Positions 9,490 through 33,978 of a stretch of 45,875 nt of DNA are shown in pieces. The notes below the pieces were generated by a model, which was given only the letters and a program-made list of their open reading frames with translations, made no database searches and was not told where the DNA came from. The DNA is taken from NCBI GenBank assembly GCA_012519355.1, contig JAAYQJ010000149.1, forward strand, positions 1-45,875, written 5' to 3'. The position numbers were made by a program, and so were the translations under genes. How positions within the stretch are numbered: the stretch's first letter is position 1; every line of letters starts with the position of its first letter. The stretch comes from Tissierellia bacterium. Lineage in GTDB: Bacteria > Bacillota > Clostridia > Tissierellales > Tissierellaceae.

Positions 9490-9507
9490 AGTAATATTTA
9501 GGGATTT

Positions 9508-10743
9508 CTATTCCTTTAATAATCTTATAAAATCATCTATATTGGTAAAATTCACCTTTCTCAAGATGAATTCAATTGCATCCATATGTTCTTTATCTAC
9601 TAGCTTAAAATAATGGGCTTTAAGTCTAGGAATTAAGAATTGTTTGTCTCCCCTATTTATTCTAGTCTCAATTAAATTTAAAAACTCTTTAACTAAGGGG
9701 ACTTGAATCAGAGGAATTTCCTTCCTGGCATTTATAGGTAGCTTCTCCTCACTTGCTACTTTATATAGAATTTCCTTATATTCTTCATTTAAAAGAACTA
9801 TGGCCATGTCTTCCAGTCTATATCCATTTTTATGATGCCTTCTTATTTCCTCAAATATCTTTTTAAGTTCCAAGTAAATACTCGGTGATTTGATTAATCT
9901 AATATTATCCGTTTTCCCAACCTCTTCAAACTCTTCATGGAAGAAATTATATCCTATGGTTTCGAAGGTATTCTTATCCTTTCCATTAACATATTCCAAT
10001 TGAAATCCTAACTCCATTAATTTAGATAGGGTCTCCTCTACATTAGGGATTTTAGATTTCATTTCAAAGGGAATGTTTATATAAATATCTACATTTGTTT
10101 TAGAAAGCTCCTTAATTATTTCCAACTCTACTGGCCTGAAATCATAAAATTCATCTATGATAATAAAATCTAAATCTTGAAATTTATGTAAATTATCCTT
10201 CAAAGTACCTATAGCCTTAAAATATGCCCCCTCCCTATCTATTAAGCCTAAAGATTCTAAATGCCTTTCATATTCTCCATAGATAAGGCCAATCTCTTTA
10301 AAGTATGGCCTATTAGGACATTTCAATAAATAATCATCTGGGTATATTATAGACCTTTTTATTTCCCCAATAATATAATTCAGTCCTTCTAAAAATCCTT
10401 CTCTTGAGGCAATATTTTTATAATAATTAAGTTTTCCTTCTTCCCTTAAATTTCTGATTGACTTCTTGATAATCAAATCCTTCATAGATTCATTGACGGT
10501 AAAATAGGTTTCATCCTTAATAATACTGGCAACTATATCATCAAAGGTAAATATATTTATTTCAAATACCTTCTCAGCTTCATTAATAAGTTTTTTCCTA
10601 TAGTCCTTTAATAGTCCTCCATGAGGCAGCAGATAATAAAACCTATTCCCCAAACCTTTCTTTAAGTAGTCCAGGGCCATATTAAAAAGCTTTGTTTTTT
10701 GATAGTTATTAAAAGGCCCAAAATATATAGTTCTATTAGCCAT
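9508..10743 (-). CDS. addB: AddB-type subunit, N-terminal portion (degenerate helicase-like domain)
   Basis: AddB-like N-terminus with degenerate Walker A (FGPFNNYQKT) and motif II-like IIIDEFYDF. Ends at a TAG that is in frame with the following 615-aa ORF. Confidence 0.7.
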   Translation of the reverse strand: MANRTIYFGPFNNYQKTKLFNMALDYLKKGLGNRFYYLLPHGGLLKDYRKKLINEAEKVFEINIFTFDDIVASIIKDETYFTVNESMKDLIIKKSIRNLREEGKLNYYKNIASREGFLEGLNYIIGEIKRSIIYPDDYLLKCPNRPYFKEIGLIYGEYERHLESLGLIDREGAYFKAIGTLKDNLHKFQDLDFIIIDEFYDFRPVELEIIKELSKTNVDIYINIPFEMKSKIPNVEETLSKLMELGFQLEYVNGKDKNTFETIGYNFFHEEFEEVGKTDNIRLIKSPSIYLELKKIFEEIRRHHKNGYRLEDMAIVLLNEEYKEILYKVASEEKLPINARKEIPLIQVPLVKEFLNLIETRINRGDKQFLIPRLKAHYFKLVDKEHMDAIEFILRKVNFTNIDDFIRLLKE

Positions 10744-17940: not shown

Positions 17941-18375
17941 CTATACTGCATATCCAGCTTCAATCTCTAAACAATAGTCTTTCAAATTTTCAGGTATATC
18001 ATCCATAGTATAATCTACGTTAATGTAAAAATCAGTTTCAAATTTTTCACTAATCTCTGTTAAAGCCTTAAGTAATTTTTCTAAATTATCAATGCTTAAG
18101 TCTATTACCTTATATATACTATCAACATATATTTTCTCCAAATCATAGTCCATTCCAATAATTCCACACAAAAAGCCATAGAACGATTCAATATTCAGTA
18201 TATTGAACTCCATGGCATTAATTAATCTAACACTATGACTCAAAGTAAAAATATGATTATGGTCTACGTCAATAAAAGCGATATTACCGTTTCCTTCCAT
18301 CATATCTTTGTTGGCATTATCAATTAGCCATTTAGTTTTACCAGAACCCTTCTCGCCTAAAATAAACTTAACCAT
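17941..18375 (-). CDS. minimal P-loop NTPase, function unknown
   Basis: Walker A GEKGSGKT at residues 7-14; Walker B-like IAFIDVD; only 144 aa. Confidence 0.6.
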   Translation of the reverse strand: MVKFILGEKGSGKTKWLIDNANKDMMEGNGNIAFIDVDHNHIFTLSHSVRLINAMEFNILNIESFYGFLCGIIGMDYDLEKIYVDSIYKVIDLSIDNLEKLLKALTEISEKFETDFYINVDYTMDDIPENLKDYCLEIEAGYAV

Positions 18376-18452
18376 GGATAACCACCTCTACCTTTCTTAT
18401 TATTTTTATATATATCGACAAAATAATTAAATTATTTTGCCTTTTACAAGGT

Positions 18453-19406
18453 TTATTTAAATTTTTTTAAGGCCTTTCCGTTTAAGTAATTAAACTTAAT
18501 TCCTTGCCTAGTGTTTCTTTCTTCCATTAGAGATACTATTTCATCCCTAATTTTCCACCAAGATTCATTCCAGTTCACAAATAACAGGTTTTCCTCAGGA
18601 GCCCTTCCTATTATCCTTTGGATAATAATATTGGGATCTAGGTATTCTAGAAATCTAATTACCCTCTCCATATATTCTTCCTTGGAAATTAAAGAAATTT
18701 CTCCCCTTTTATACATGTCTCCTAATACAGTTCCCTCAACTATGTATAAGGCATGGAGTTTAATTTCTTCAACTCCTAGGGCAGAGACAATTTTTGCGTT
18801 TTCTATTACATCAACATCATCATCCCAGGGTAGGTTTAAGATCAAATGGGTACAATTTCTTATACCGTATTTTTTCAATTTAATAGCCGTATCTATATAT
18901 TCTCCTAGGCTGTGTCCCCTATTAATCTTCATCAAAGAATGATAATTAACCGATTGCAGTCCTAATTCTATAGTAACATGCAGCTTATGTTTTTCCTTAA
19001 TATAGGATAGGTATTCTAAATGCTCATCATTTATGCAATCAGGTCTAGTTGATATTGAGATACCTACAATATCTTCTCCTATAGTATCCTCTATGGTGGA
19101 TTTAAAATCTTTAATGGGTAAATAAGTATTTGTGAAATTTTGAAAATAAGCTATAAACTTTTTTGCTTTATACTTATCCCCAATATACTCTTTATTTATC
19201 CTTAGCTGTTCTTTTATGGATAGGGAAGATGATAAGTTTTCAAAAGACCCTCCTTCCTCACCACAAAATATACAGCCACCATAAGCTAAGGTTCCATCCC
19301 TATTTGGGCATGTAAGGGGTAAGCTTATTGGCAATTTATAAACTTTCTCCTTAAATTCTTTCATTAAATAATTGGAATAGGTATTATATACTGTTATTTT
19401 ATTCAA
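18453..19406 (-). CDS. TIGR01212-family radical SAM protein (YhcC-like)
   Basis: CPNRDGTLAYGGCIFC cluster motif and family-typical length. Confidence 0.85.
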   Translation of the reverse strand: MNKITVYNTYSNYLMKEFKEKVYKLPISLPLTCPNRDGTLAYGGCIFCGEEGGSFENLSSSLSIKEQLRINKEYIGDKYKAKKFIAYFQNFTNTYLPIKDFKSTIEDTIGEDIVGISISTRPDCINDEHLEYLSYIKEKHKLHVTIELGLQSVNYHSLMKINRGHSLGEYIDTAIKLKKYGIRNCTHLILNLPWDDDVDVIENAKIVSALGVEEIKLHALYIVEGTVLGDMYKRGEISLISKEEYMERVIRFLEYLDPNIIIQRIIGRAPEENLLFVNWNESWWKIRDEIVSLMEERNTRQGIKFNYLNGKALKKFK

Positions 19407-19422
19407 ACTTGTCCTCCTTTCA

Positions 19423-20244
19423 TTATATATTTAATACCCTTTTTAATGCAAAGGCAACGCCAGAATTATTATTGTCATTTTTTGTTATTATCTTGGCAAC
19501 TGATTTAACCTTCTCAATACCATTTTTCATGGCTATACCAAGACCAGAGTTCTGAATCATTTCTATATCATTGTTGTCATCACCTATGGCAATTATCTCC
19601 TCTGCTTTTATATTTAAAGTATCAGCATACTCCATTAGGGTTATCCATTTACTACCTAAGGGATTCATAATTTCTACCATGGATTCAACTAGCTGAAGGT
19701 TTTCCATCATATGTATATTATAATTATTGGGATATTTTTGCTTAATAAATTCATAAAAGGGATAAAGATTTGCTTTAGTATCCGCATATACTATTACTAG
19801 TATATTATGATTATCAATTTCTAAATAACTCTTTACTTCCCTAAATCTATTGGCTTTTTTAATATAATCACCATAATCCCTATTTGGTTCAACTAATATA
19901 TCAACACCCTTCTCATAATCATCTATATGAACAACTGGATGAAGACCTCTTTTCATTCCTTCTTCTATTATTAGTTTATAGTCTTGAAAATTTAAATATT
20001 TTGCTATTATAACCTCATCATTTAAAGAATTCCTAACTATATTACCATTGTTTGCAATTATTGTGATATGACCTTCTATTTCCTTAGTCAATTCCTTTGC
20101 AGACCAGTATCTTCTCCCAGTTGTAATAACTACTTCATAACCTTCTTTAATTAGCTTATTTATTGTCTCTAAATTTTCCTTAGTTATATTTTTATTATCA
20201 TCAAGTAAGGTCCCGTCTAAGTCTATTGCTATTAATTTATACAA
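19423..20244 (-). CDS. Cof-type HAD-IIB phosphatase
   Basis: DLDGTLL motif I, TGR motif II, GDDNNDIEM motif IV. Confidence 0.85.
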   Translation of the reverse strand: MYKLIAIDLDGTLLDDNKNITKENLETINKLIKEGYEVVITTGRRYWSAKELTKEIEGHITIIANNGNIVRNSLNDEVIIAKYLNFQDYKLIIEEGMKRGLHPVVHIDDYEKGVDILVEPNRDYGDYIKKANRFREVKSYLEIDNHNILVIVYADTKANLYPFYEFIKQKYPNNYNIHMMENLQLVESMVEIMNPLGSKWITLMEYADTLNIKAEEIIAIGDDNNDIEMIQNSGLGIAMKNGIEKVKSVAKIITKNDNNNSGVAFALKRVLNI

Positions 20245-20302
20245 CTATCTCCCCCCAATTATTTTAAAAGCACCCTGCCAAATGCAAAGTGCTTTATTGA
20301 AG

Positions 20303-20701
20303 CTAATCCTCTACTTCATCATAGTTTTCATATTCAACAAAATCTTCATCATCTAAAAACAATGCATCAAAAGCTTGAGCTACTATATCAAACTCATCTG
20401 GGTTAACAATTGGAAGTAATTCAAAGTCATCATCGTTTAATTCATTGTATTTATATAGTAGAACTTCTTCTTCTCCTATTGGTTGTAATGCAATATATTC
20501 ATCCTCTTCAACTTCAAATACGCCTAAAATAAAGCACTCTAATTCTGTATCATCTTCTAAAGTTAAAACAATAATATCCTCGTTTAAATCACCAAAGTCT
20601 AATTCCTCATATTCATGGTCGTGATCACAGTCTACTCCACAACCGCATCCACCACAGTGTTCGTCATTGTATTGGAAAGTTTCCTTATTGTTTTTATCCA
20701 T
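20303..20701 (-). CDS. DUF1292-like acidic protein with a Cys/His-rich N-terminal extension
   Basis: Core ...LECFILGVFEVEEDEYIALQP... is typical of DUF1292; N-terminus is HCGGCGCGVDCDHDHE. Confidence 0.55.
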   Translation of the reverse strand: MDKNNKETFQYNDEHCGGCGCGVDCDHDHEYEELDFGDLNEDIIVLTLEDDTELECFILGVFEVEEDEYIALQPIGEEEVLLYKYNELNDDDFELLPIVNPDEFDIVAQAFDALFLDDEDFVEYENYDEVED

Positions 20702-20781
20702 CTTAATTCTCCTTTATAAAATATTTATTATATGCTATATAATACACCATTTAGCTAAGGAAGTATACATATTTTTCAATT

Positions 20782-22245
20782 TTATTTAATTTTTTCTAAT
20801 ACTTGCAATAGTAATTGATAGGTTCTTTCTGTTGATGAAATGCTTAGTCTTTCACCAGGTGCATGGACCCCATACATAGTTGGCCCTAAGGAGACCATGT
20901 CAATATTTTCAAACTTTTCATCAAATATTCCACATTCTAGGCCTGCATGTATGGCAGAAATATTTATCTCCTTATTATAAAGTTCCCTATAGCTTTCCTT
21001 AATAATCTCCCTTATATATGAATTATCCTTATATTGCCAAGCTGGATAGGAAGATGTCCTTTCATAACTTCCTCCTATAACCTTTGCTAGCAACTCTATC
21101 TGTTCAGATATAAATTGCTTTAATGTCCCAACTGATGATCTGATGGCAGATTCTAAAGTTATTTGATTATCTAAGGTCTTAATAACTCCAAGATTATTTG
21201 AACTTTCTACTAGTCCTTCTATGGCCATACTCATACTTTGAACACCATTTGGTAAGAGATTTAGGGCAGTTATTAGTTTGCTCTTTGTATTTTCAGAGAA
21301 GGCCTTATCTTCCTCTTCTTTTAACTTATTTAACTTTATTTCTATATCTTTATCTGAATGTAGGAATTCATTTTTTAATTCCTTATCCAAATCAAATATA
21401 ATGGATTTTGCTTTTTCAAATTCACCCTTTGCTATGGCAACTTTTGCTCTTGTATACCTTGGTATAGCATTGGGTTTAGAGCCACCTTCTATATGGAATA
21501 AATCATAATCTAATTCTTTATTAAGCCTATTTAGAACCCTACCCATTATTTTGTTTGAATTCCCTCTTCCCCTATTGATATCTATGCCAGAATGTCCCCC
21601 TTGTAAGCCGGAAACAATTAATTCATAACTTTCTCTCTCTTTAATAGTATCCTTCCATTCAATGGGTATGGCTATAATATTTCTTTCCCCCCCTGCACAG
21701 CTAACTAAAATAGTACCTTCCTCTTCTGAATCTAGGTTAATCAAAATTCTTCCCTTTAGATTTTCAGGACTTAATGCTGATGCACCAGTCATTCCTGATT
21801 CCTCATCTGATGTTATTAAAGCCTCTAAAGGAGGATGGAGAATATCTTTAGACTCCAATATAGCTAATATCATGGCTAGGGCTATACCGTTGTCAGCCCC
21901 TAGGGTTGTTTTCTCTGCTATTATATAGTCACCATCAATATGAAATTTAATTGGATCCTTTGAAAAGTCATGATTGGAATCCTGAGTTTTTTCACATACC
22001 ATATCCATGTGGCCCTGTAATATTACTGTCGGGCTGTTTTCATATCCCTTAGACCCTGGTTTTTTGATTATTATATTCAAGGCTTCATCTTGTATAACTT
22101 CTAGACCTAGGCTCCTTCCTACGCCTGCTAAATAGTTACTGATTTTTTCCTCATGATGTGAACAACGAGGTATTTTAGTTATTTCTTCAAAATAATACAT
22201 TACCCTCTCAGGTTTAATACCATGTAAAATTGCCAAGTTTATCAC
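20782..22245 (-). CDS. pepD: aminoacyl-histidine dipeptidase (M20C, PepD)
   Basis: IPRCSHHE, GHMDMV and DEESGMTGA metal-site motifs; GTG start inferred. Confidence 0.85.
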   Translation of the reverse strand: MINLAILHGIKPERVMYYFEEITKIPRCSHHEEKISNYLAGVGRSLGLEVIQDEALNIIIKKPGSKGYENSPTVILQGHMDMVCEKTQDSNHDFSKDPIKFHIDGDYIIAEKTTLGADNGIALAMILAILESKDILHPPLEALITSDEESGMTGASALSPENLKGRILINLDSEEEGTILVSCAGGERNIIAIPIEWKDTIKERESYELIVSGLQGGHSGIDINRGRGNSNKIMGRVLNRLNKELDYDLFHIEGGSKPNAIPRYTRAKVAIAKGEFEKAKSIIFDLDKELKNEFLHSDKDIEIKLNKLKEEEDKAFSENTKSKLITALNLLPNGVQSMSMAIEGLVESSNNLGVIKTLDNQITLESAIRSSVGTLKQFISEQIELLAKVIGGSYERTSSYPAWQYKDNSYIREIIKESYRELYNKEINISAIHAGLECGIFDEKFENIDMVSLGPTMYGVHAPGERLSISSTERTYQLLLQVLEKIK

Positions 22246-22300: not shown

Positions 22301-22795
22301 TTATATATTCTCCCAGCTTATATTATTTAGTATATCTACAAGTTGTATAAAATAATCTTTCTCCAATTCAGTGAACCTATTTTTTATTGGACTATCTAAA
22401 TCTAAGACTCCATAAACTCTTCCAGCCTTAATAATAGGGATAACTAATTCTGAATTAGAGGCTGAATCACAGGCTATATGGCCAGGGAATTGATGGACAT
22501 CTGGTACTAATTGGACTTCTCTTGTATCTACTGCTGTACCGCATACTCCTTTCCCAATGGAAATTCTATTACATGCTGGCAAGCCTTGAAATGGTCCCAA
22601 AACTAATTCATTATCTCTTAGGAAATAAAATCCTGCCCAATTTAGTTTATCAATACATGCCATTATTATTCCAGTTACATTGGAGATATTTGCTAGTTCA
22701 TCCTTTTCAGAACTTAACTGTCCCTTTACAAGGATAAGCATATATTTTAATCTTTCTTCATCATTCATATCCTTAATCTTATCTAGCTTAAACAT
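22301..22795 (-). CDS. msrC: GAF-domain free methionine-(R)-sulfoxide reductase family protein (YebR/MsrC-like)
   Basis: LVLGPFQGLPACNRISIGKGVCG ... GHIACDSASNSELVIP ... GVLDLDS closely matches the fRMsr pattern. Confidence 0.75.
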   Translation of the reverse strand: MFKLDKIKDMNDEERLKYMLILVKGQLSSEKDELANISNVTGIIMACIDKLNWAGFYFLRDNELVLGPFQGLPACNRISIGKGVCGTAVDTREVQLVPDVHQFPGHIACDSASNSELVIPIIKAGRVYGVLDLDSPIKNRFTELEKDYFIQLVDILNNISWENI

Positions 22796-25856: not shown

Positions 25857-25874
25857 GAATCCCCTTAGGGATTC
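25857..25874 (-). terminator. terminator after msrA
   Basis: 7-bp stem gaatccc / gggattc with a 4-nt loop; T-rich tail on the minus strand. Confidence 0.55.
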
Positions 25875-25875
25875 A

Positions 25876-26352
25876 CTATTTACTCAAATCTATATGGCAA
25901 TAACCACCAGGATTTTTCTTTAAATAATCTTGATGATATTCTTCAGCTTTATAGAATGATTTCAATGGCAAAATTTCAGTTACTATAGGTTTCGTATACT
26001 TTGTTTTCTGCTCTTCCAGGGTTTTATTAATAAGATATAAGTCCTCTTCATCCACATAATATATACCAGTTCTATATTGGTTTCCTATATCTGGCCCCTG
26101 CCTATTTAACAAAGTAGGGTCTATAATATTCCAAAACCTAGTTAGTAATTCTTCTAAGGATATTATCTTTTCGTCATATTTAATATATGTTGTTTCTGCA
26201 TGGCCTGTAGTGCCAGTACATACTTCTTCATAAGTTGGGTTTGCCTTGGTACCATTGGCATAACCAACTTCAGTATCTACAACCCCATCTATTCGGGACA
26301 TATATTCTTCTACACCCCAAAAACATCCGCCTGCTAAATATATTTCTTTCAT
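25876..26352 (-). CDS. msrA: peptide methionine-(S)-sulfoxide reductase
   Basis: GGCFWG active-site motif, EEYHQDYL, typical length. Confidence 0.95.
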
Positions 26353-26423: not shown

Positions 26424-28184
26424 TTATCTATAACCTATTAAGAGAATAAACTCAGTACTATCTAAATTTATATTGTCATCTTCATCTACTCTTCCACTAA
26501 TATTTTTGAATATAAACCTAAACTCAATATTATCTTCAATGCCAAGAAATGAAATATCATAGGTCATATCCATTGGATGAAGTAGGTTTTTTCTATTTTC
26601 TGCATCAGATTCAAGTCTTCCATATATATCCTTTACAAATACAATTATATCCTGTTGAAGTAAAACCGAATCTCCTTTTGATATAGTTAATATATTCTCT
26701 TGCCTATTATACTGTAGTATTAGGTCCCCTACTTGTAATTCATTCTCTTGCCAAGAATTGATGTTAACAAAATATTGAAATTCCTCTATGTTAATGGGCT
26801 CCTCCAGATTAATACTATAATAAAAATGTCTATATTCTTCAAAATCAGCCATAAAATGCGGCCTATATTCAAACCCAATTACTCTTTCCATATCATCTAA
26901 ACTAAAACCACCAGGTAAGGATTTTATCTCATTTATATTGTGATTTCTATCGAAATAACTAATTATATTGCTAATCTCCCTTTGGTCCTCCTTTGATAAG
27001 TTCTCATTAGGAACAATACTTCCATCAACAATCATACTATTTTCAAGTAATATTTTCTCAAATCTTTTGTTTTGGCTATATTTAGATACGGAAAAACTAC
27101 TCAATGGACCATAAACAGAAACCAGTACTATTATGGACAAACTAATTGGTATCAATATATTTTTTAATGGCTTTTTTATAGAAAAATACAACATAGTTGC
27201 TAATACCCAAAGCCCTAAAACTATCACAAAATACCTATTTTCAGTAATTCCATATTGGGCCACTCTCTTGTAAATAGATAAAAACATCATCAGTAGAACA
27301 GGCAATATTATCTTTGGAAATACCTGTTTAAACAGTTTTGCTATTTTATTCTCTTCAAGTATAGGAGTTAATAAGAAGATTACTCCTACAGATACAGTTG
27401 AATACCATAATACTAAATGGGATACCAAACCTCTAGGCCACTGGCGAGTAAGGAGTATTTTTGCAAAATACAGATAAAGTATTAAGGTATATATTGTGAT
27501 TAAAGGTATCACTATATAGGTTAATAAGACTGTCAAAGACTTATTATACCGAATGTCTTTATACTCCCTCTCAATTGAAGGTAACTTTGATAGAAAGAGG
27601 GATGCTGCAAATACAAAGACAATAATAAAAAATGTATAAAGGTATAATTCACTTTTAATATTGATATCGAAAAGCTGATCAATAGTTACTAGTATTATAG
27701 ATATTCCAATATATAAAACTGCAGAATATATGAAGGTTATAGCAAAACTTTGTAGGACATCTAATATATAATATTCATAATCTTTGTTTTTACCAATTCT
27801 TGGAATATATATAAATGCTAAGATTAGAAATATCAAAGTAGCCAAATACCTATAAGCTGCTACAAGACTTTTATTATCCAAGAAAAAATTATAATATACT
27901 ATTAAAAATAATCCCCCTGCTACAAAAAGGAGTAGTGAGTATGAACTATTCTTTCTATTAAATTTTTCTATTAGTAATGAAATACATAAGGATAAGGGGA
28001 TTCCTAATCCTAGAACTAAGGCTATCTTCTCTACAGTCTCCTTTATATCTCCACTTAATTGACTTTCAATCAAATAAATTAACAAGAATGCCAATAGTGA
28101 AGATATTAGTATAGTTAATGGAAATCTTTTTAGGCTCTTCCTAATGCTCAATACCGTTGACTTGACTCTTTCTAATATGCCCAT
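26424..28184 (-). CDS. large polytopic membrane protein (DUF4153-like) with a C-terminal soluble domain of about 220 aa
   Basis: About 11-12 hydrophobic helices in the first 360 aa, then a hydrophilic domain; 27-nt gap to the upstream RelA/SpoT-like gene. Confidence 0.6.
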   Translation of the reverse strand: MGILERVKSTVLSIRKSLKRFPLTILISSLLAFLLIYLIESQLSGDIKETVEKIALVLGLGIPLSLCISLLIEKFNRKNSSYSLLLFVAGGLFLIVYYNFFLDNKSLVAAYRYLATLIFLILAFIYIPRIGKNKDYEYYILDVLQSFAITFIYSAVLYIGISIILVTIDQLFDINIKSELYLYTFFIIVFVFAASLFLSKLPSIEREYKDIRYNKSLTVLLTYIVIPLITIYTLILYLYFAKILLTRQWPRGLVSHLVLWYSTVSVGVIFLLTPILEENKIAKLFKQVFPKIILPVLLMMFLSIYKRVAQYGITENRYFVIVLGLWVLATMLYFSIKKPLKNILIPISLSIIVLVSVYGPLSSFSVSKYSQNKRFEKILLENSMIVDGSIVPNENLSKEDQREISNIISYFDRNHNINEIKSLPGGFSLDDMERVIGFEYRPHFMADFEEYRHFYYSINLEEPINIEEFQYFVNINSWQENELQVGDLILQYNRQENILTISKGDSVLLQQDIIVFVKDIYGRLESDAENRKNLLHPMDMTYDISFLGIEDNIEFRFIFKNISGRVDEDDNINLDSTEFILLIGYR

Positions 28185-28211
28185 AAACTTTTCCCTTCTT
28201 TAATTTTATTT

Positions 28212-29558
28212 TTAAAAAACATGGTTTGCTATAACATTATATACCTTTTCCTTATTTTTTAACCATTCTTCGTAGGAATTTATCTCATTAAAAATTATAT
28301 TGATGTTATTATTTAATGTGTTGATGCTACATTCACATAGGAAGTCAACATCTACATGATCCATGAAGTTATAAGCTATAGCATCCATAATATTTTCTAA
28401 TATCTCATCCTTTTCTACTTCCTTTAGGTCTTTCTCTTCTAATACCAGTTTGATGGATTCATAAAACCTATACCTAATAAAAATGATAAAGCCTTCAAAA
28501 TCTTCTGCCTTATTTCCTCCTTCTATTTCAAATATTATCTTAAAGAATAAATTCCATCTGAAATCCTTATTTATTATTTCTAGAATACTATTACCTACCT
28601 TCCTTGTAAAACAATCATTAAAGGAAAGTGGTCTTTCAAAATCAATATATTTGTTAAAAGATATATCACTTTTACCAATTTCATTTAATCTATTTAATAT
28701 CCTAATAAAGTTTACACTGTAGTTATCAGTTTTCTCTAATCCATCCTTCATAAATATATAATCTACTATAACATCCGTAGATTTTTTGAAATCGATTACA
28801 AACCCCAATTCACGTTTTAATTTAACAATATAAATATCATGAATGATTTTAGATAATAAGGCCTGCAATTGGGCTTTTTTAGTCATTGAATTGCTGGAAT
28901 CCATACCCTTTAAATGGTTGTATACAAGCATTAATTGTCTATCTATCATGGATAAATTGTCTTTAATAGAGGACATTATATCTCTAAAAAAATCTTCAGT
29001 TAACATATAATTATAGTTCTTATAAAGGATTCTATGGTCTATTTCACCCCAAAACACGTTTACTAAGGATTTAATCTGAAGTTCAAAATTAACTGATATA
29101 TGATCCTTTACATATTTTCCATCAATTTTATATATTTCAAAACCGTTTTTTTGTTTTTGAGGTTGCTTAGTCTTCAAATCTAGCATAATATTTGAATTGA
29201 GAGGATTTGTATAATAGCCATCTTCTAATTCTATTTTGAATAATTTTACTATATCATTATATATTTTCTTTTCATCTTCAATAAATCTACATTCAATCCT
29301 AAAACCTATTAAGTCTGATAGATTATTTATTAAGTTCTCCGGGGTCATATATTTTATGTAAAAGTTGTGTCGAAGTATCTTCTCTCTTAAACTCTCAGGC
29401 GATTTAATTCTATAACTAACATTTAAAAAATGATCATTAATAAAAAAACTATCAGTAAAAAACTTCTCTAATGCAGAAGCCACATTATCTATACTTTCTT
29501 TTCTTTCTTCAATGAGGTCTAATGTCTCATCAATAAAGTCAAACAGTTCCAGCTTCAT
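28212..29558 (-). CDS. RelA/SpoT-domain (alarmone-synthetase fold) protein with an uncharacterised C-terminal helical domain of about 250 aa
   Basis: Synthetase-fold motifs YRIKSPESLREKI, DLIGFRIECRF, ELQIKS...FWGEIDHRILYK in the first 190 aa. No hydrolase (HD) domain. Own promoter-like TGATATAAT and AGGGGGA SD. Confidence 0.7.
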   Translation of the reverse strand: MKLELFDFIDETLDLIEERKESIDNVASALEKFFTDSFFINDHFLNVSYRIKSPESLREKILRHNFYIKYMTPENLINNLSDLIGFRIECRFIEDEKKIYNDIVKLFKIELEDGYYTNPLNSNIMLDLKTKQPQKQKNGFEIYKIDGKYVKDHISVNFELQIKSLVNVFWGEIDHRILYKNYNYMLTEDFFRDIMSSIKDNLSMIDRQLMLVYNHLKGMDSSNSMTKKAQLQALLSKIIHDIYIVKLKRELGFVIDFKKSTDVIVDYIFMKDGLEKTDNYSVNFIRILNRLNEIGKSDISFNKYIDFERPLSFNDCFTRKVGNSILEIINKDFRWNLFFKIIFEIEGGNKAEDFEGFIIFIRYRFYESIKLVLEEKDLKEVEKDEILENIMDAIAYNFMDHVDVDFLCECSINTLNNNINIIFNEINSYEEWLKNKEKVYNVIANHVF

Positions 29559-29636
29559 TATTCATCCCCCTAGACAATATAATAATACTCCCACCCTAAA
29601 TTATATCATAAATATAGGAGGAATATTAAAAAGAAA

Positions 29637-29659
29637 AGAGAAATCATATAGATTTCTCT
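29637..29659 (-). terminator. rho-independent terminator after nqrF
   Basis: 9-bp stem agagaaatc / gatttctct with a 5-nt loop; minus-strand tail TTTCTTTTT; overlaps the nqrF TAG. Confidence 0.7.
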
Positions 29660-30761
29660 AATCAAATTTATCGAAGTAAATTAGTTCTTCTGATAAACCT
29701 TTTGCAGTTAAAGCTGTAACCATTGTATCTATCATGGCCTTATTGCCGCAGAGATAGGCTTCCTTATATTCACCGTTTTCTAAATATTTATCTATAACAA
29801 CATTTACCCTACCTCTTTCTCCTTGCCAATTATGTTCTTCTGTAGCCCTAGTAAGGGTAGGAATATATTTAAAATCAAACATGGTTTCTTCCAATTCCTT
29901 AAAGAAATCCGTCATCATTAGATCATCAGGAGTTCTGGCCCCGAAGTAAAAAGTTGCCTTCCTATTGATATTCTTTTCCTTCATATATCTTAGTATTGAA
30001 AGAATTGGAGCTATACCTGTACCTGCAGCTACTAATACTATCTCCCTATCACTATCTTCTTGGAAATAAAAGTCACCATAAGGACCATTTATCTGTACTG
30101 TATCTCCAACTTTTAAGTGTTTGTGTACATAGGTAGTACAAATACCATTAGGTACATATCCAATAAATAATTCTATATGATCTTTATCATAGGGTGATGA
30201 AGCTATTGAATAAGCTCTATAAACCTCCTCGTCGTTGCCTTCATAAATAGGAGCCTTTAATTGTATAAACTGCCCCGGCTTAAAGCTTATATCCTCTCCT
30301 TCCGGTAGTTTAAGCTTCAATCTCTTAATTACTGATGTGACATCTTCCATTTCTTCAACAACTGCAGCAAATTCCTTTACATTAAATAGCTCCTCAGGTA
30401 TTTCTATTTTTATATTTTCTTTTACCTTACACTGACATGAAAGTCTAACCCCTTTTTCTATTTCCTCATCTGACATAAAGGGAGTTTCTGTGGATAGAAT
30501 TGGTCCTCCTCCTTCTAAAACTCTAACCTTACAATATCCACATGTACCCTTCCCACCACATGCAGAGGGAATGAATATCTTTTCATCTATTAAAGTAGAT
30601 AAGAGGGACGACCCTCCTTGAACAGTATACTCCTTATCCTCATTAATTATTATGCTTACTTCTCCATAATTACCTATTGTTCTATCAGCCAAGGTAAGCA
30701 AAAAGGCAAATATAGCAGAAATCCCAGATATAGCAACTGTAGTAATAATTATTTCGTTCAT
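29658..30761 (-). CDS. nqrF: NqrF-type NADH-oxidising subunit (TM helix, 2Fe-2S ferredoxin, FAD/NAD-binding domain)
   Basis: N-terminal helix; SACGGKGTCGYCKV...C 2Fe-2S motif; RAYSIAS FAD motif; AAGTGIAP NAD motif. 367 aa, shorter than Vibrio NqrF. Confidence 0.85.
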   Translation of the reverse strand: MNEIIITTVAISGISAIFAFLLTLADRTIGNYGEVSIIINEDKEYTVQGGSSLLSTLIDEKIFIPSACGGKGTCGYCKVRVLEGGGPILSTETPFMSDEEIEKGVRLSCQCKVKENIKIEIPEELFNVKEFAAVVEEMEDVTSVIKRLKLKLPEGEDISFKPGQFIQLKAPIYEGNDEEVYRAYSIASSPYDKDHIELFIGYVPNGICTTYVHKHLKVGDTVQINGPYGDFYFQEDSDREIVLVAAGTGIAPILSILRYMKEKNINRKATFYFGARTPDDLMMTDFFKELEETMFDFKYIPTLTRATEEHNWQGERGRVNVVIDKYLENGEYKEAYLCGNKAMIDTMVTALTAKGLSEELIYFDKFD

Positions 30762-30773
30762 ATTGGCCCCCCC

Positions 30774-31364
30774 TTATTGTATCTGAACTATGCCAGAAAA
30801 GCCTACAAAAGCTAAGGCCATAAGTCCAGTTATAATTAAACTAATACCTGCCCCTTCTAACCCCTTAGGTATTGATGCTTTCTTTAATTTTTGGCGGATT
30901 CCAGCCAAGGCTACTATGGCTAAAGTCCATCCTATTCCTGAACCTATACTAAATCCTATTGATTGAAGGAAATTATATTTACGAATAATCATAAATAAGG
31001 AAACTCCTAGAATAGCACAGTTAACAGTTATTAGGGGTAAAAATATTCCTAAAGCATAGTATAAATTTGGTAAGTATCTCTCTACTATCATCTCCAATAA
31101 TTGTACAAAGGCTGCAATACTAATTATAAATACTATAAATCTCAGATATTCTAGATTCAAAGGTACCAATACATAATGATATATTAAGTAATTAATAATT
31201 GTAGTACAGGCTAGTACAAAAGTAACTGCCTGACCTAAACCTAATGAAGTAGGAATTTCTTTTGATACAGCAATATAAGAGCACATACCCAAGAAATTGC
31301 TAAATATCATATTGTTAGTAAATATGGCTGCAAAGAAAATAACCATTGGATTAAGTTCAATCAT
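30774..31364 (-). CDS. nqrE: NqrE/RnfA-family membrane subunit
   Basis: FLGMCSYIAVSK and LGIFLPLITVNCAI, both Fe-ligand Cys retained; GSGIGWTLAIVALAGIR. Confidence 0.85.
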   Translation of the reverse strand: MIELNPMVIFFAAIFTNNMIFSNFLGMCSYIAVSKEIPTSLGLGQAVTFVLACTTIINYLIYHYVLVPLNLEYLRFIVFIISIAAFVQLLEMIVERYLPNLYYALGIFLPLITVNCAILGVSLFMIIRKYNFLQSIGFSIGSGIGWTLAIVALAGIRQKLKKASIPKGLEGAGISLIITGLMALAFVGFSGIVQIQ

Positions 31365-31987
31365 GATTTAGCCACCTCACCTTTCTTTTCTTCTTTATCC
31401 TTTTCTTGGATACTCTTCGTTATCCAAATAATAACTGCTAATATGAAAAAAGCAGCTGGTGGCATTATCATTATGGTCCAAGATGTCCACCAGTCACCTA
31501 GAACCCTGATACCAAAAATAGTTCCAAATCCAAAAAGCTCCCTAACAAAGGCAATCAATAATAGGACTATTGTATAGCCTAAACCCGAAGCCACTCCATC
31601 TAAAAAAGCTGGGATTGGTGGATTTTGCTGGGCATAGGCTTCTGCCCTACCCATTATTATACAATTGGTAATTATTAAGCCTACATAAGGTCCAAGAGCT
31701 TTGCTCATCTCAGGCATGTAAGCTTGCAAAAATATATCAACTATAATTACATAGGCTGCTATTATAAGTACTTGAACCATCATTCTAATATGTTTAGGTG
31801 TAAAGTTTCTAATTAATGACACTGTAAATGAAGATAAACCTGTTACAAACATCAAGCCTACTCCCATAATTAATGAATTCATCATTACATTAGTAACAGC
31901 CAAAGCTGAACAAATACCTATTATTTGAACTAGTACAGGGTTATCCTTCCATACACCCATCTCAAAAATCTTTTTTGGGCTATCCAT
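31361..31987 (-). CDS. nqrD: NqrD/RnfE-family membrane subunit
   Basis: GICSALAV and GLIITNCIIMGRAEA, both Cys retained; LIRN and FVRELFG motifs; 4-nt overlap with nqrE. Confidence 0.85.
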   Translation of the reverse strand: MDSPKKIFEMGVWKDNPVLVQIIGICSALAVTNVMMNSLIMGVGLMFVTGLSSFTVSLIRNFTPKHIRMMVQVLIIAAYVIIVDIFLQAYMPEMSKALGPYVGLIITNCIIMGRAEAYAQQNPPIPAFLDGVASGLGYTIVLLLIAFVRELFGFGTIFGIRVLGDWWTSWTIMIMPPAAFFILAVIIWITKSIQEKDKEEKKGEVAKS

Positions 31988-32592
31988 TAATTATTCCCCC
32001 TTCCTTTCAAGAACTTATCTAAATCTTCGTTGATGAAATTACTAACTGATTTAGAAGTTAATGTAGCTCCAGCTATAGCATCTACATTACCACCAGGGGC
32101 TGGCCTGTATATGATGTAATTTCCATCTCTTGCCTTAGTTAAATCTAAACCCCTAAACTGTTCTTTAAAATCATCTTCAGAAATTCTCCCACCTAGTCCT
32201 GGGGTCTCACTGTGGGATATGAAGTCCAACCCAAGAATGATTGAATAATCATGGGAAACTCCTATATAAGCTTCTACACTTCCCCAAAGACCTGGTCCAC
32301 CAACAGGTACTGCATAGCCTAAGATTTCACCATCATCTCCATAATATACATATATAAAATTATCTTCATAGGCCATGGTACCAATACTCTCTTCAAAAGC
32401 TCTTAAAACATCTGCTGGTTCCTCTGATTGAGGTTCTATATTGAATATATACAATATTTTCCTACTCAACTCTAATTCCTTGTTTAAGGCTATCCTCTCC
32501 GCAGTACTATGATTTAGAAATGCTAGTACAAAGGTGAATATGGCAGTTACTACAATCATAAAGATTATTGGAAAAATAAAAGATTTTTTCAT
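31987..32592 (-). CDS. nqrC: NqrC/RnfG-family FMN-binding subunit
   Basis: N-terminal TM anchor, ETPGLGGRI, flavinylation motif DAIAGATLTS. 201 aa, which is RnfG-sized. Confidence 0.8.
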   Translation of the reverse strand: MKKSFIFPIIFMIVVTAIFTFVLAFLNHSTAERIALNKELELSRKILYIFNIEPQSEEPADVLRAFEESIGTMAYEDNFIYVYYGDDGEILGYAVPVGGPGLWGSVEAYIGVSHDYSIILGLDFISHSETPGLGGRISEDDFKEQFRGLDLTKARDGNYIIYRPAPGGNVDAIAGATLTSKSVSNFINEDLDKFLKGRGNN

Positions 32593-33572
32593 ATTGCCAC
32601 CTCTTCTTTTTTCGCTTTTAGCTCCTTTTTATACCTCTTATAGGCATTGACTCCTTCATCCATAATTGGAACAAAGGTATTAGCTATAAGAATGGCAAAC
32701 ATCATTCCACCTGCAAATAATGCGTACCCTCGGATTATGACTGTAACAATACCAATTAATATTCCATAAATCCACTTGGCCTCCTTAGTCTTAGGCGCTG
32801 TTATTGGATCTGTTGCCATGAAGACAGCACCAAATAATAAACCGCCTGCAAAAATACCAAAAATCGGATTTGGTATTTGGCTAACACCTAAGGCATATAA
32901 GCTACCACTTAAAGCTGTAAATCCAATAATAACACCAGCCATAATCTGCCATGAGGCAACCTTCTTATAGATTAAGTAAATTCCTGCAAGGATTATTAAT
33001 ATGGCTGATGTTTCACCTAAGGAACCTGTAACATTTCCTAAAACTAAATCCATCATAGAAGTTAGATTTCCAGTATCCCTAAATATAAGCATTGGAGTTG
33101 CTTGAGATACTGCATCGATACCTTCGGTAATGTAGGCTGCAAATCCTCCTGGAAACCCTACAGCTGACTTTGACCATTCAATAGTAAGTGGCGCAGGAAA
33201 GCATACATATACAAATGCCCTAGCAACTAAGGCAGGGTTGAATACATTTTTCCCAAATCCACCAAATACTTCCTTCCCGAAAAAAATGCCAAATATAATC
33301 CCTATGGCTGCAATCCAAAGTGGTGTAGATGGTGGTAGAGTCATTGTATAAAGAATGCAAGAAACAAAAACTGCCTCTGAAACTTTTCTATTGTATTTTT
33401 TTTCAAACATCCATTCAGTAGTCAAACCTGCAATGGTTACGACCACTAGCAAGACTAATGCCCTCCAACCAAAAAAATAGATTGAAGCTATTATTATTGG
33501 TATTAAAGATAATATCACTGAACGCATCATCTTTTGCTTCATAAAATTCTTTTTATAGTTATCCCCTAACAA
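32589..33572 (-). CDS. nqrB: NqrB/RnfD-family membrane subunit
   Basis: GKEVFGGFGKNVFNPALVARAF, flavinylation-like DAVSQAT, FMATDP. TTG start 5 nt after GGAGGTG. 327 aa, so it lacks the long NqrB N-terminal extension. Confidence 0.8.
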   Translation of the reverse strand: MLGDNYKKNFMKQKMMRSVILSLIPIIIASIYFFGWRALVLLVVVTIAGLTTEWMFEKKYNRKVSEAVFVSCILYTMTLPPSTPLWIAAIGIIFGIFFGKEVFGGFGKNVFNPALVARAFVYVCFPAPLTIEWSKSAVGFPGGFAAYITEGIDAVSQATPMLIFRDTGNLTSMMDLVLGNVTGSLGETSAILIILAGIYLIYKKVASWQIMAGVIIGFTALSGSLYALGVSQIPNPIFGIFAGGLLFGAVFMATDPITAPKTKEAKWIYGILIGIVTVIIRGYALFAGGMMFAILIANTFVPIMDEGVNAYKRYKKELKAKKEEVAI

Positions 33573-33780: not shown

Positions 33781-33978
33781 CTATAGAATATTGATATTTT
33801 CTGCTTGTAGACCTTTAGCGCCTTCTACAACATTAAATTCTACTTCTTGACCTTCTTCTAAAGTTTTGAATCCTTCTTTGTTGATTTGGGAGAAGTGAGC
33901 GAATACATCGTTTCCTTCTTCTGTAGTAATAAATCCAAATCCTTTTTCTGCATTAAACCATTTTACTGTACCTTTCAT
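33781..33978 (-). CDS. cspA: cold-shock protein (CspA family)
   Basis: KGFGFI (RNP1) and VFAHF (RNP2) motifs; 65 aa. Confidence 0.95.

What the first reader, a model, noticed from the sequence alone, without database searches (positions are those of the whole stretch)
26424..29558. Orphan RelA/SpoT-fold synthetase with a novel C-terminal domain, paired with a DUF4153-like membrane protein
What the sequence shows:
- The 448-aa protein keeps the nucleotide-pyrophosphokinase fold motifs of small alarmone synthetases: R-x-K-x3-S-x3-K, DxxGxRI-C, ExQI(K/S) and W..I(D)H...YK.
- It diverges at substrate-contacting positions. ELQIRT becomes ELQIKS, and the GYRSxH strand is replaced by GFEIYK.
- It has no HD hydrolase domain. 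It carries about 250 aa of unrecognised, helix-rich C-terminal sequence.
- It has its own promoter-like element and SD. It sits 27 nt upstream of a 586-aa membrane protein with about 12 TM helices and a soluble C-terminal domain, so the two are probably co-transcribed.

Why it matters: synthetase-only RSH proteins with extra domains include toxSAS toxins and fused toxin-antitoxin defence proteins such as CapRel. Their products range from (p)ppGpp and (p)ppApp to pyrophosphorylated tRNA.

Inference: pairing a divergent SAS with a large membrane protein is not a described module. It could be a membrane-linked nucleotide-signalling, stress or defence pair.
Basis: partly seen in the sequence, partly recalled or inferred. 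Interest (0 to 1): 0.66.

Follow-up and report, generated by a model that had tools for sequence, protein, structure and literature searches.

The report
cloRel-type alarmone synthetase beside DUF4153 gene
The 448-aa protein is a real but ordinary chromosomal member of a large, uncharacterised clostridial family of small alarmone synthetases (named cloRel in 2011), and the membrane-protein gene next to it is a neighbour only in one lineage, not a conserved partner.

Summary
The 448-aa protein has a significant RelA_SpoT domain (53.9 bits against a cut-off of 27). Its fold is closest to the housekeeping synthetases RelP and RelQ. It also has a roughly 230-aa all-helical C-terminal domain with no Pfam, PDB or viral-fold match.

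It is not an orphan. Full-length relatives occur in at least 586 species genomes of Clostridia. These include Finegoldia magna and Clostridium tetani, whose only non-RelP/RelQ synthetase-only protein was classified as 'cloRel' by Atkinson et al. (2011). I found no functional study of cloRel.

The DUF4153 pairing is not a conserved module:
- It is adjacent in 16 of 62 evaluable species genomes, all Tissierella-like.
- It is absent from all 30 evaluable genomes with more distant relatives.
- A pyruvate formate-lyase (PFL) cluster separates the two genes in two genomes.
- The DUF4153 gene is frameshifted next to an intact synthetase gene in two genomes.
- In one MAG, a DUF4153 ortholog has no synthetase gene within the flanks read.

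The context is housekeeping (nqr, msrA, nrdDG). There are no defence-model hits and no phage or mobile-plasmid copies. The most likely reading is a stand-alone regulated pyrophosphokinase whose acceptor is unknown. Interest is modest.

The parts
29637..29659 (-). Terminator-like hairpin ending the upstream nqrBCDEF operon
   Evidence: 9-bp stem followed by a T-run, found by the scan; sequence read.
29600..29629 (-). Sigma-70-type promoter-like site (TTAATA-18-TATAAT with upstream TG) for the synthetase gene
   Evidence: 10 of 12 consensus matches, with an extended -10. This is a consensus match only, not evidence of function.
28212..29558 (-). 448-aa cloRel-type small alarmone synthetase gene
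   Evidence: ORF. Pfam RelA_SpoT 53.9 bits. 100% cluster P0001 and more than 1400 homologs. The start codon is conserved, since homologs align from residue 1.
29013..29411 (-). RelA_SpoT nucleotide pyrophosphokinase core (residues 50-182)
   Evidence: Pfam match. R50, K52, S56, K60, D82, G85, E159, Q161, H175, Y179 and K180 are invariant in 41 diverse members. Foldseek top hits are RelP/RelQ at E about 1e-6.
28215..28895 (-). Family-specific all-alpha C-terminal domain (residues 222-448)
   Evidence: AF2 pLDDT 90.4, ten helices. No PDB match (best E 0.83, TM at most 0.26). No viral-fold match. No Pfam family recurs in this domain among 41 members. Conserved N330, D332, W335, F357.
26424..28184 (-). 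586-aa DUF4153 membrane protein gene, 27 nt downstream
   Evidence: ORF. PF13687 94.4 bits. About 11 hydrophobic segments in residues 21-361, then an acidic 225-aa tail. Orthologs are 46-78% identical in Tissierellaceae.
25876..26352 (-). msrA (peptide methionine sulfoxide reductase), probably the last gene of the same transcription unit
   Evidence: Pfam PMSR 221 bits. The gap is 71 nt with a GGGAGG SD and no terminator-like site in it.
25857..25874 (-). Terminator-like hairpin after msrA
   Evidence: 7-bp stem with 4 GC pairs, followed by a T-rich tail.

Best explanation
The 448-aa protein is a chromosomal, vertically inherited member of the cloRel subfamily of small alarmone synthetases, found in Clostridia.

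**Shown**
- It has a RelP/RelQ-like pyrophosphokinase domain.
- All ATP-binding and catalytic residues are conserved across the family.
- A family-wide 230-aa all-helical C-terminal domain is fused to it.

**Inferred**
- The exact acceptor is uncertain, because the acceptor loop is remodelled in a family-conserved way (QPQxQKNGFxIY[K/R]xDG instead of NGYRSxH).
- The C-terminal domain acts as a regulatory or oligomerisation module, not as a fused antitoxin.

**The neighbour**
- The DUF4153 gene is a lineage-specific neighbour. It lies in a variable segment between the synthetase gene and msrA in Tissierellaceae.
- In this genome the three genes are probably one transcript.
- DUF4153 is not needed for, and not generally linked to, the synthetase.
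For: **Domain and active site**
- Pfam RelA_SpoT scores above its cut-off.
- The profile of 41 members matches RelP/RelQ chains at E 4e-11 to 3e-8.
- Foldseek of the AF2 model (pLDDT 81) ranks RelP/RelQ first at E about 1e-6. FaRel2 is at 1e-3 and CapRel at 5e-3.
- R50, K52, S56, K60, D82, G85, E159, Q161, H175, Y179 and K180 are invariant in 41 sequences down to 28% identity.
- The aromatic position that stacks on the acceptor is kept as F140. It is Tyr in other SAS and is essential in FaRel2 (Y128A; bioRxiv 10.1101/2021.04.30.441581). F140 is invariant in the 49-sequence alignment.

**Family size and inheritance**
- 147 clusters at 50% identity score E <= 1e-30, nearly all 445-460 aa and aligned end to end.
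- At least 586 species genomes carry a relative. Identity falls with taxonomic distance: Tissierella 77%, Gudongella/Soehngenia 60%, Fenollaria/Ezakiella/Clostridium 46-54%.

**cloRel identity**
- Atkinson et al. 2011 list cloRel[S] + Rel[HS] as the only RSH proteins of Finegoldia magna, and cloRel + Rel + RelP for C. tetani.
- The F. magna 455-aa 'RelA/SpoT domain protein' is a full-length member of this family: 41% identity in the phmmer match over query residues 2-441, E 2.6e-79.
- C. tetani carries one too (L073, 47% identity).

**Neighbourhood**
- DUF4153 is adjacent in 16 of 62 evaluable genomes and in 0 of 30 below 57% identity.
- No gene family is a conserved neighbour across the family.
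- The genes directly downstream of the synthetase gene in the Fenollaria, Ezakiella and other more distant Tissierellia loci are an M20 peptidase, DUF1292, a radical SAM protein and a 142-aa protein. In the window they lie 6-10 kb further downstream in the same order. DUF4153-msrA-nrdDG-GAF is therefore an insertion into an older backbone.
- Surrounding genes are housekeeping.
Against: - No enzymatic data exist for any cloRel member in the literature I could search, so activity and product are inferred.
- The acceptor loop differs from every characterised SAS at the canonical Arg and His positions (R to E, H to K/R). (p)ppGpp synthesis is therefore not assured.
- AF2 confidence is poor for residues 166-222, which include the conserved W170..K180 motif.
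- The cloRel assignment rests on matching organisms and gene complements, not on running the authors' HMMs.
- In the Tissierella-like subclade the DUF4153 adjacency is fairly persistent. It is on the same strand with gaps of about 25-160 nt, which leaves room for a local functional link.
Confidence: 0.72

Rival explanations
1. In the Tissierella lineage the synthetase and the DUF4153 membrane protein form a working pair, possibly together with MsrA. The membrane protein would sense an envelope or oxidative signal and control alarmone synthesis.
For: - The genes share a strand and are 27 nt apart. No terminator-like site lies in either intergenic gap before the one after msrA.
- The adjacency recurs in 16 species genomes and in further metagenome contigs.
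- Recurrent neighbours are oxidative-stress genes: rubrerythrin and msrA.
Against: - The pairing is absent from 13 of 31 evaluable Tissierellaceae-level genomes (at least 57% identity) and from all 30 more distant ones.
- A PFL / PFL-activase / Crp cluster sits between the two genes in L023 and L053.
- DUF4153 is frameshifted while the synthetase is intact in L002 and L040.
- A 47%-identical DUF4153 ortholog sits beside an ABC-F gene, with no synthetase gene within the 5-kb flanks read.
- DUF4153 diverges faster than the synthetase (59% against 77% in T. carlieri).
- With 11 hydrophobic segments and the N-terminus inside, the soluble domain would face outwards, away from the cytoplasmic enzyme. 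This topology is inferred.
Confidence: 0.12
2. It is a toxic SAS, either (pp)pApp-producing or tRNA-pyrophosphorylating. Its C-terminal domain would be a fused, CapRel-like autoinhibitory antitoxin or sensor, acting in phage defence.
For: - It is synthetase-only, with an extra C-terminal domain of unknown fold.
- Its acceptor loop is non-canonical.
- It has no separate hydrolase or antitoxin, as expected for a fused system.
Against: - No PADLOC model matches.
- No full-length relative occurs in 50,697 phage records. Plasmid hits are C. butyricum megaplasmids of 0.7-0.9 Mb and a 2.6-Mb replicon, all typed non-mobilizable or lying in chromosome-like context.
- Inheritance follows taxonomy and the flanks are syntenic housekeeping genes.
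- The catalytic domain is acidic (pI 5.25). In RelP/RelQ, an acidic surface at the position of the FaRel2 tRNA-binding patch was proposed to preclude tRNA binding (10.1101/2021.04.30.441581).
- Foldseek places CapRel and FaRel2 about 1000-fold weaker than RelP/RelQ.
- The C-terminal domain shows no fold match to CapRel.
Confidence: 0.06
3. It is a catalytically dead or repurposed RelA/SpoT-fold protein, for example a nucleotide-binding regulator, not an enzyme.
For: - The G-loop Arg and His are replaced.
- AF2 confidence is low around the W..H..YK helix.
- The Pfam score is only moderate.
Against: All residues that bind ATP and Mg2+ and the catalytic Glu/Gln pair are invariant across members down to 28% identity. 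That pattern is expected for an active enzyme, not a decayed site.
Confidence: 0.08

Closest known systems
cloRel subgroup of small alarmone synthetases (Atkinson, Tenson & Hauryliuk 2011, PMC3153485)
   Same: - Synthetase-only RSH protein restricted to Clostridia.
- The genomes listed with cloRel (Finegoldia magna, C. tetani) carry full-length members of this family at 41-47% identity.
   Different: - Nothing measurable; this appears to be the same family.
- The 2011 paper gives only a name and a distribution. It does not describe the C-terminal domain, the acceptor-loop changes or any function.
RelP / RelQ housekeeping SAS (PDB 6EWZ, 6FGK, 5DEC, 5DED)
   Same: - Best sequence and structure matches.
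- Same RxKxxxSxxxK, DxxGxR, ExQ and H...YK residues.
- Acidic catalytic domain.
- Chromosomal housekeeping context.
   Different: - Twice as long, with a 230-aa all-alpha C-terminal domain of no known fold.
- NGYRSLH becomes NGFEIY[K/R], preceded by a family-specific QPQxQK motif.
- QIRT becomes QIKS.
- Only 16-20% identity in structural alignments.
CapRel (fused toxin-antitoxin tRNA pyrophosphokinase; PDB 7ZTB)
   Same: A single polypeptide with an N-terminal SAS domain and an extra C-terminal domain, and no separate partner gene across the family.
   Different: - Weak structural match (E 5e-3).
- The C-terminal domain has a different all-helical fold with no match.
- No defence-model hit.
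- Not prophage- or island-borne.
- Acidic, not basic, catalytic domain.
FaRel2 / PhRel2-type bicistronic toxSAS toxin-antitoxin modules (Jimmy et al. 2020, PMC7229694)
   Same: RelA_SpoT fold. Here the gene is followed closely by a second gene on the same strand.
   Different: - toxSAS loci are defined by a conserved, often overlapping, small antitoxin gene.
- Here the downstream gene encodes a 586-aa membrane protein, is not overlapping, and is not conserved with the synthetase.

Membership tests
RelA/SpoT (RSH) synthetase domain, PF04607 | Significant match to the curated profile above its gathering score | tested here: met
   53.9 bits against a cut-off of 27, E 2.5e-14, residues 50-182. 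All 41 diverse family members match.
RelA/SpoT (RSH) synthetase domain, PF04607 | ATP/Mg2+-binding and catalytic residues: RxKxxxSxxxK, DxxGxR, ExQ, H...YK | tested here: met
   R50, K52, S56, K60, D82, G85, E159, Q161, H175, Y179 and K180 are invariant in 41 sequences. Positions confirmed.
RelA/SpoT (RSH) synthetase domain, PF04607 | Acceptor-loop Tyr (NGYRSxH) that stacks on the acceptor base | tested here: inconclusive
   Tyr is replaced by an invariant Phe (F140), so the aromatic is kept. The flanking Arg and His are E and K/R.
RelA/SpoT (RSH) synthetase domain, PF04607 | Alpha/beta fold of the SAS catalytic domain | tested here: met
   Foldseek ranks 32 RelP/RelQ-family SAS chains first, at E 1e-6 to 4e-5 and TM (normalised to the target) 0.48-0.59.
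RelA/SpoT (RSH) synthetase domain, PF04607 | ATP-dependent 3'-pyrophosphotransfer activity | not testable with these tools
   Needs purified protein and labelled ATP with candidate acceptors.
Small alarmone synthetase (synthetase-only RSH) | No HD hydrolase, TGS or ACT domains | tested here: met
   RelA_SpoT is the only Pfam family above its cut-off, and the only family that recurs across 41 members.
cloRel subgroup (Atkinson et al. 2011) | Orthology with the proteins the authors assigned to cloRel (F. magna, C. tetani, C. perfringens, C. difficile) | tested here: met
   - F. magna is listed with only cloRel + Rel. Its 455-aa RelA/SpoT-domain protein (P0157/P0483) aligns with query residues 2-441 at 41% identity, E 2.6e-79.
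- C. tetani is listed with cloRel + Rel + RelP and has a full-length member (L073, 47%).
- The match is indirect. C. difficile and C. perfringens members were not retrieved.
cloRel subgroup (Atkinson et al. 2011) | Best-scoring subgroup HMM and placement in the RSH phylogeny | not testable with these tools
   The RSH subgroup HMMs are not available here.
toxSAS toxin-antitoxin modules (FaRel, FaRel2, PhRel, PhRel2) | Conserved bicistronic or overlapping arrangement with a cognate antitoxin gene | tested here: not met
   No gene family is a conserved neighbour across 82 loci. The only close downstream gene is DUF4153, present in 16 of 62 genomes.
toxSAS toxin-antitoxin modules (FaRel, FaRel2, PhRel, PhRel2) | Toxicity on expression, neutralised by the partner | not testable with these tools
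   Needs expression assays.
CapRel-type fused defence toxSAS | Match to defence-system models, and location in a prophage or defence island | tested here: not met
   - No PADLOC hit.
- No full-length phage copies.
- Housekeeping synteny.
CapRel-type fused defence toxSAS | C-terminal antitoxin/sensor domain homologous to that of CapRel | tested here: not met
   A Foldseek search with the C-terminal domain model returns no CapRel chain and nothing below E 0.8.
DUF4153 (PF13687) membrane protein | Profile match above the gathering score | tested here: met
   94.4 bits against a cut-off of 27, residues 60-377. Homologs are annotated 'DUF4153 domain-containing protein'.
   Adjacency by synthetase identity to the query (HMM search of all locus ORFs):
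- at least 70%: 11 of 13
- 57-70%: 5 of 19
- below 57%: 0 of 30

In one MAG, a DUF4153 ortholog has no synthetase gene within the 5-kb flanks read.

The most novel reading that the evidence does not exclude
cloRel enzymes may have a conserved, remodelled acceptor pocket (QPQxQKNGFxIY[K/R]xDG, with Glu in place of the canonical Arg). With it they would pyrophosphorylate an acceptor other than GDP/GTP, or make an unusual alarmone, under control of a C-terminal all-alpha domain of a fold not yet seen. In Tissierella, this signalling enzyme would be wired into an operon with a DUF4153 membrane protein and MsrA, to respond to oxidative or envelope stress.
Probability: 0.18. Interest if true: 0.6.

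Novelty: new member of a known kind. Interest (0 to 1): 0.3.

Why it matters
As a genome-scan finding this is mostly a clarification. The 'orphan synthetase plus membrane partner' is a routine member of a named family, sitting next to a gene that is its neighbour only in one lineage.

What remains of value is the family itself:
- cloRel is present in C. difficile, C. perfringens, C. tetani and Finegoldia magna according to the 2011 classification.
- I found no biochemical or genetic characterisation of it. Work on the C. difficile stringent response considers only RSH and RelQ.
- It carries a strictly conserved but non-canonical acceptor loop and a confidently predicted C-terminal domain with no known fold.

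Determining its product and regulation would fill a real, if modest, gap in clostridial alarmone biology.

Tried and rejected
- **Defence or toxin reading.** PADLOC scan of both proteins gave nothing. tblastn against phage records gave only weak N-domain matches to other SAS. Against plasmids, the listed full-length hits were megaplasmids or a mislabelled chromosome.
- **RNA elements.** An Rfam scan of the whole window for a leader or riboswitch found no family.
- **Fold of the C-terminal domain.** Foldseek found nothing meaningful against PDB (best E 0.83) or the viral library (best E 1.7). The full-length model returned only N-domain matches.
- **Domain fusions as a functional hint.** Longer variants (498-534 aa, including one from Paenibacillus, and a 743-aa Oscillospiraceae form) show only RelA_SpoT in Pfam.
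- **Literature.** Searches for DUF4153, for cloRel and for a third C. difficile synthetase found no functional information. DUF4153 was only reported as wrongly placed in the Cache clan.
- **Direct retrieval of the C. difficile or C. perfringens cloRel sequence.** A second homolog search seeded with the Acetoanaerobium member did not list them in its top 120. The supplementary files of Jimmy et al. 2020 are not held.
- **More sensitive DUF4153 search.** A DUF4153 HMM run over all locus ORFs, in case tblastn had missed divergent copies next to distant synthetases, found none.


Full report
**1. Observation**

Both ORFs exist on the - strand exactly as described: 29558..28212 (448 aa) and 28184..26424 (586 aa).

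The first protein matches Pfam RelA_SpoT over residues 50-182 (E 2.5e-14, 53.9 bits; gathering score 27). It has no HD, TGS or ACT match. The second matches DUF4153 (94.4 bits).

Alignments to RelP/RelQ chains show that canonical NGYRSLH and EIQIRT are NGFEIYK and ELQIKS here.

The transcription signals fit a three-gene unit:
- The gap between the two genes is 27 nt, with an SD.
- Upstream, a hairpin plus T-run ends the nqr operon (29659-29637). It is followed by a TTAATA-18-TG-TATAAT promoter-like site (29629-29600).
- Downstream, msrA follows after 71 nt with its own SD. The next terminator-like site outside a coding region is after msrA (25874-25857).
- Synthetase-DUF4153-msrA is therefore plausibly one transcription unit in this genome. 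That step is inference from consensus scans.

Hydropathy gives about 11 hydrophobic segments in DUF4153 residues 21-361, then an acidic 225-aa tail (pI 4.5).

**2. The synthetase belongs to a large family**

- The 5.8-billion-protein search returned more than 1400 significant hits. The top 120 are all about 448 aa, 66-95% identical and from Tissierella/Tissierellaceae, annotated '(p)ppGpp synthetase' or 'GTP pyrophosphokinase'.
- The exhaustive search of 50%-identity representatives found 655 clusters (147 at E <= 1e-30). Nearly all are 445-460 aa and aligned end to end. There is also a 500-535-aa subgroup, including one from Paenibacillus, and a 743-aa Oscillospiraceae form.
- A scan of one genome per species found at least 586 genomes with a relative. 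The best 80 run from Tissierella (about 77%) through Gudongella/Soehngenia (about 60%). They continue to Fenollaria, Ezakiella, Schnuerera, Acetoanaerobium, C. tetani, C. acetireducens and Haloimpatiens (46-54%).
- Identity falls with taxonomic distance, as expected for vertical inheritance.

**3. Active site and fold**

In 41 members down to 28% identity, R50, K52, S56, K60, D82, G85, E159, Q161, H175, Y179 and K180 are invariant. So is a family-specific Q132-P133-x-x-Q136-x-N138 stretch before the acceptor loop. F140 is invariant in the 49-sequence alignment.

The Tyr normally at position 140 stacks on the acceptor base and is essential in FaRel2 (Y128A). The Asp equivalent to D82 binds Mg2+ (bioRxiv 10.1101/2021.04.30.441581). 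The donor site and chemistry therefore look intact. The acceptor pocket is conserved but different from that of any characterised SAS.

AF2 (49-sequence alignment) gave pLDDT 81 and pTM 0.75. Foldseek against PDB ranks 32 RelP/RelQ-family SAS chains first (E 1e-6 to 4e-5). FaRel2 is at 1e-3 and CapRel at 5e-3. The catalytic half is acidic (pI 5.25). Published RelP/RelQ surfaces are likewise negatively charged at the position of the FaRel2 tRNA-binding patch, which was proposed to preclude tRNA binding.

**4. C-terminal domain**

Modelled alone, residues 222-448 give pLDDT 90.4 and ten helices. There is no meaningful match in PDB (best E 0.83, TM at most 0.26) or among viral predicted structures. 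No Pfam family other than RelA_SpoT recurs among the 41 members.

The domain is conserved family-wide (N330, D332, W335, F357).

**5. Identity with cloRel**

Atkinson et al. 2011 defined a synthetase-only subgroup 'cloRel' in Firmicutes. Their table lists it in C. difficile, C. perfringens, C. tetani E88 (cloRel + Rel + RelP) and Finegoldia magna (cloRel + Rel only).

The F. magna 455-aa 'RelA/SpoT domain protein' (cluster of P0157) aligns with query residues 2-441 at 41% identity, E 2.6e-79. C. tetani carries a full-length member (L073, 47%). F. magna has only one synthetase-only RSH, so this family is cloRel.

The assignment is indirect, because the authors' HMMs were not available. I found no functional work on cloRel. 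The C. difficile stringent-response papers I checked treat only RSH and RelQ.

**6. The DUF4153 pairing**

I took the 80 species-genome loci from the scan. I called their ORFs, searched them with the window proteins, and searched all ORFs with an HMM built from 59 DUF4153 orthologs. I also read three loci found through Tissierella homologs.

Counts for the 62 loci with at least 2 kb downstream:

| Synthetase identity to query | DUF4153 adjacent | Not adjacent (0.5-4 kb away) | Absent |
|---|---|---|---|
| at least 70% | 11 | 1 | 1 |
| 57-70% | 5 | 2 | 12 |
| below 57% | 0 | 0 | 30 |

Further points against a fixed pair:
- In L023 and L053 a PFL / PFL-activase / Crp cluster lies between the two genes.
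- In T. carlieri CP172320 (L002) and Paratissierella segnis (L040) the DUF4153 gene is split by a frameshift while the synthetase gene is intact.
- A 47%-identical DUF4153 ortholog lies beside an ABC-F gene, with no synthetase gene within the 5-kb flanks read.
- Gaps between the two genes are about 25-160 nt and never overlapping.
- DUF4153 diverges faster than the synthetase (59% against 77% in T. carlieri).
- No other gene family is a conserved neighbour across the family. Recurrent neighbours are nqrF (32 loci, Tissierellaceae), a PpiC-type rotamase at -1 (13 loci), rubrerythrin, LrgAB, PFL and msrA.

The genes immediately downstream of the synthetase gene in the Fenollaria, Ezakiella and other more distant Tissierellia loci are an M20 dipeptidase, DUF1292, a TIGR01212-like radical SAM protein and a 142-aa protein. 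In the window they lie 6-10 kb further downstream, in the same order and orientation (20782-22245, 20303-20701, 18453-19406, 17941-18375). DUF4153-msrA-nrdD-nrdG-GAF is therefore an insertion into an older backbone, in a segment that varies between lineages.

**7. Defence and mobility**

- Neither protein matches a PADLOC model.
- No full-length relative occurs in phage records.
- The listed full-length plasmid hits are C. butyricum 0.7-0.9-Mb megaplasmids and a 2.6-Mb replicon. Nineteen of the 26 plasmid records with a match are typed non-mobilizable. In C. butyricum the gene lies between a GNAT gene and a 2'-5' RNA ligase gene.
- The window is housekeeping throughout: addAB, glutaminase, pseudouridine synthases, nrdDG, nqrBCDEF, MATE transporter, feoB.
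- Rfam finds nothing.

**8. Interpretation**

Best supported (0.72): this is a cloRel-type small alarmone synthetase. It acts as a stand-alone cytoplasmic pyrophosphokinase, and its C-terminal all-alpha domain provides regulation or oligomerisation. The fold, the conserved catalytic residues, the family size and the lack of a conserved partner are shown. The product and the role of the C-terminal domain are inferred.

Rivals:
- A lineage-local functional link with DUF4153/MsrA (0.12).
- A dead or repurposed fold (0.08).
- A CapRel-like fused toxin (0.06).

**9. Verdict**

The finding is a new member of a known, named but uncharacterised kind. Interest is modest. It rests on the uncharacterised cloRel family, which occurs in major clostridial pathogens, and not on the proposed membrane-protein module.

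Noticed in passing
window 17941-22245 (- strand); loci L048-L052, L061, L065, L069, L070, L074, L076: An M20 dipeptidase, DUF1292, a HAD hydrolase, a TIGR01212-like radical SAM protein and a 144-aa protein lie in the window in the same order as the genes directly downstream of the synthetase gene in more distant Tissierellia genomes (Fenollaria, Ezakiella and others). This reveals an old syntenic backbone into which DUF4153-msrA-nrdDG-GAF was inserted.
   Followed up: partly
L002 7422-9187 (T. carlieri CP172320); L040 about 8350-10120 (Paratissierella segnis): The DUF4153 gene is split into two ORFs (80+522 aa and 164+424 aa) next to an intact synthetase gene. This suggests decay of DUF4153 in some strains, or sequencing errors.
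   Followed up: partly
window 7642-10743 (- strand): addB appears split into two ORFs: 411 aa with ADDB_N and 615 aa with the PD-(D/E)XK nuclease domain, separated by 18 nt. They lie upstream of a 1113-aa addA. This could be a frameshift, an assembly error or a genuine split.
   Followed up: no
window 29658-33572 (- strand); L001, L002: The nqr-like operon starts with the NqrB-like gene, followed by FMN_bind, two Rnf-Nqr genes and NqrF. No nqrA-like ORF lies upstream, here or in the Tissierella loci. In the window only a 65-aa ORF precedes it (33781-33978). A 65-aa cold-shock-domain (CSD) gene lies further upstream in L001, before a rotamase gene.
   Followed up: no
loci L009, L033, L040, L044, L048-L052, L066, L069, L070, L074, L076 (position -1); L001 1007-1756: A 249-aa PpiC-type peptidyl-prolyl isomerase gene is the most phylogenetically widespread upstream neighbour of the synthetase gene. 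In L001 (T. creatinophila) the nqr operon lies between the two. The window itself lacks this gene (no tblastn hit).
   Followed up: partly
window 22301-22795 (- strand): A 164-aa GAF-domain protein lies downstream of nrdG and a few kb from msrA. Its size and domain resemble free methionine-(R)-sulfoxide reductases. Together with rubrerythrin in relatives, this gives the region an oxidative-stress flavour.
   Followed up: no
window 28893-29063 (residues 166-222 of the synthetase): The full-length AF2 model has pLDDT below 50 over residues 166-222, although this stretch includes the strictly conserved W170..H175..Y179-K180 motif and the linker to the C-terminal domain. The region may be mobile or an interface.
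   Followed up: no
P0229 (743 aa, Oscillospiraceae); P0227 (521 aa, Paenibacillus hunanensis): Family variants carry a roughly 237-aa N-terminal extension (P0229) or roughly 70-aa C-terminal extensions. Neither has a Pfam match, so domain fusions give no functional hint.
   Followed up: partly
window 2259-4076 (- strand): A 605-aa ORF has no Pfam match at E <= 1e-5. It lies between an ABC transporter gene and addA.
   Followed up: no
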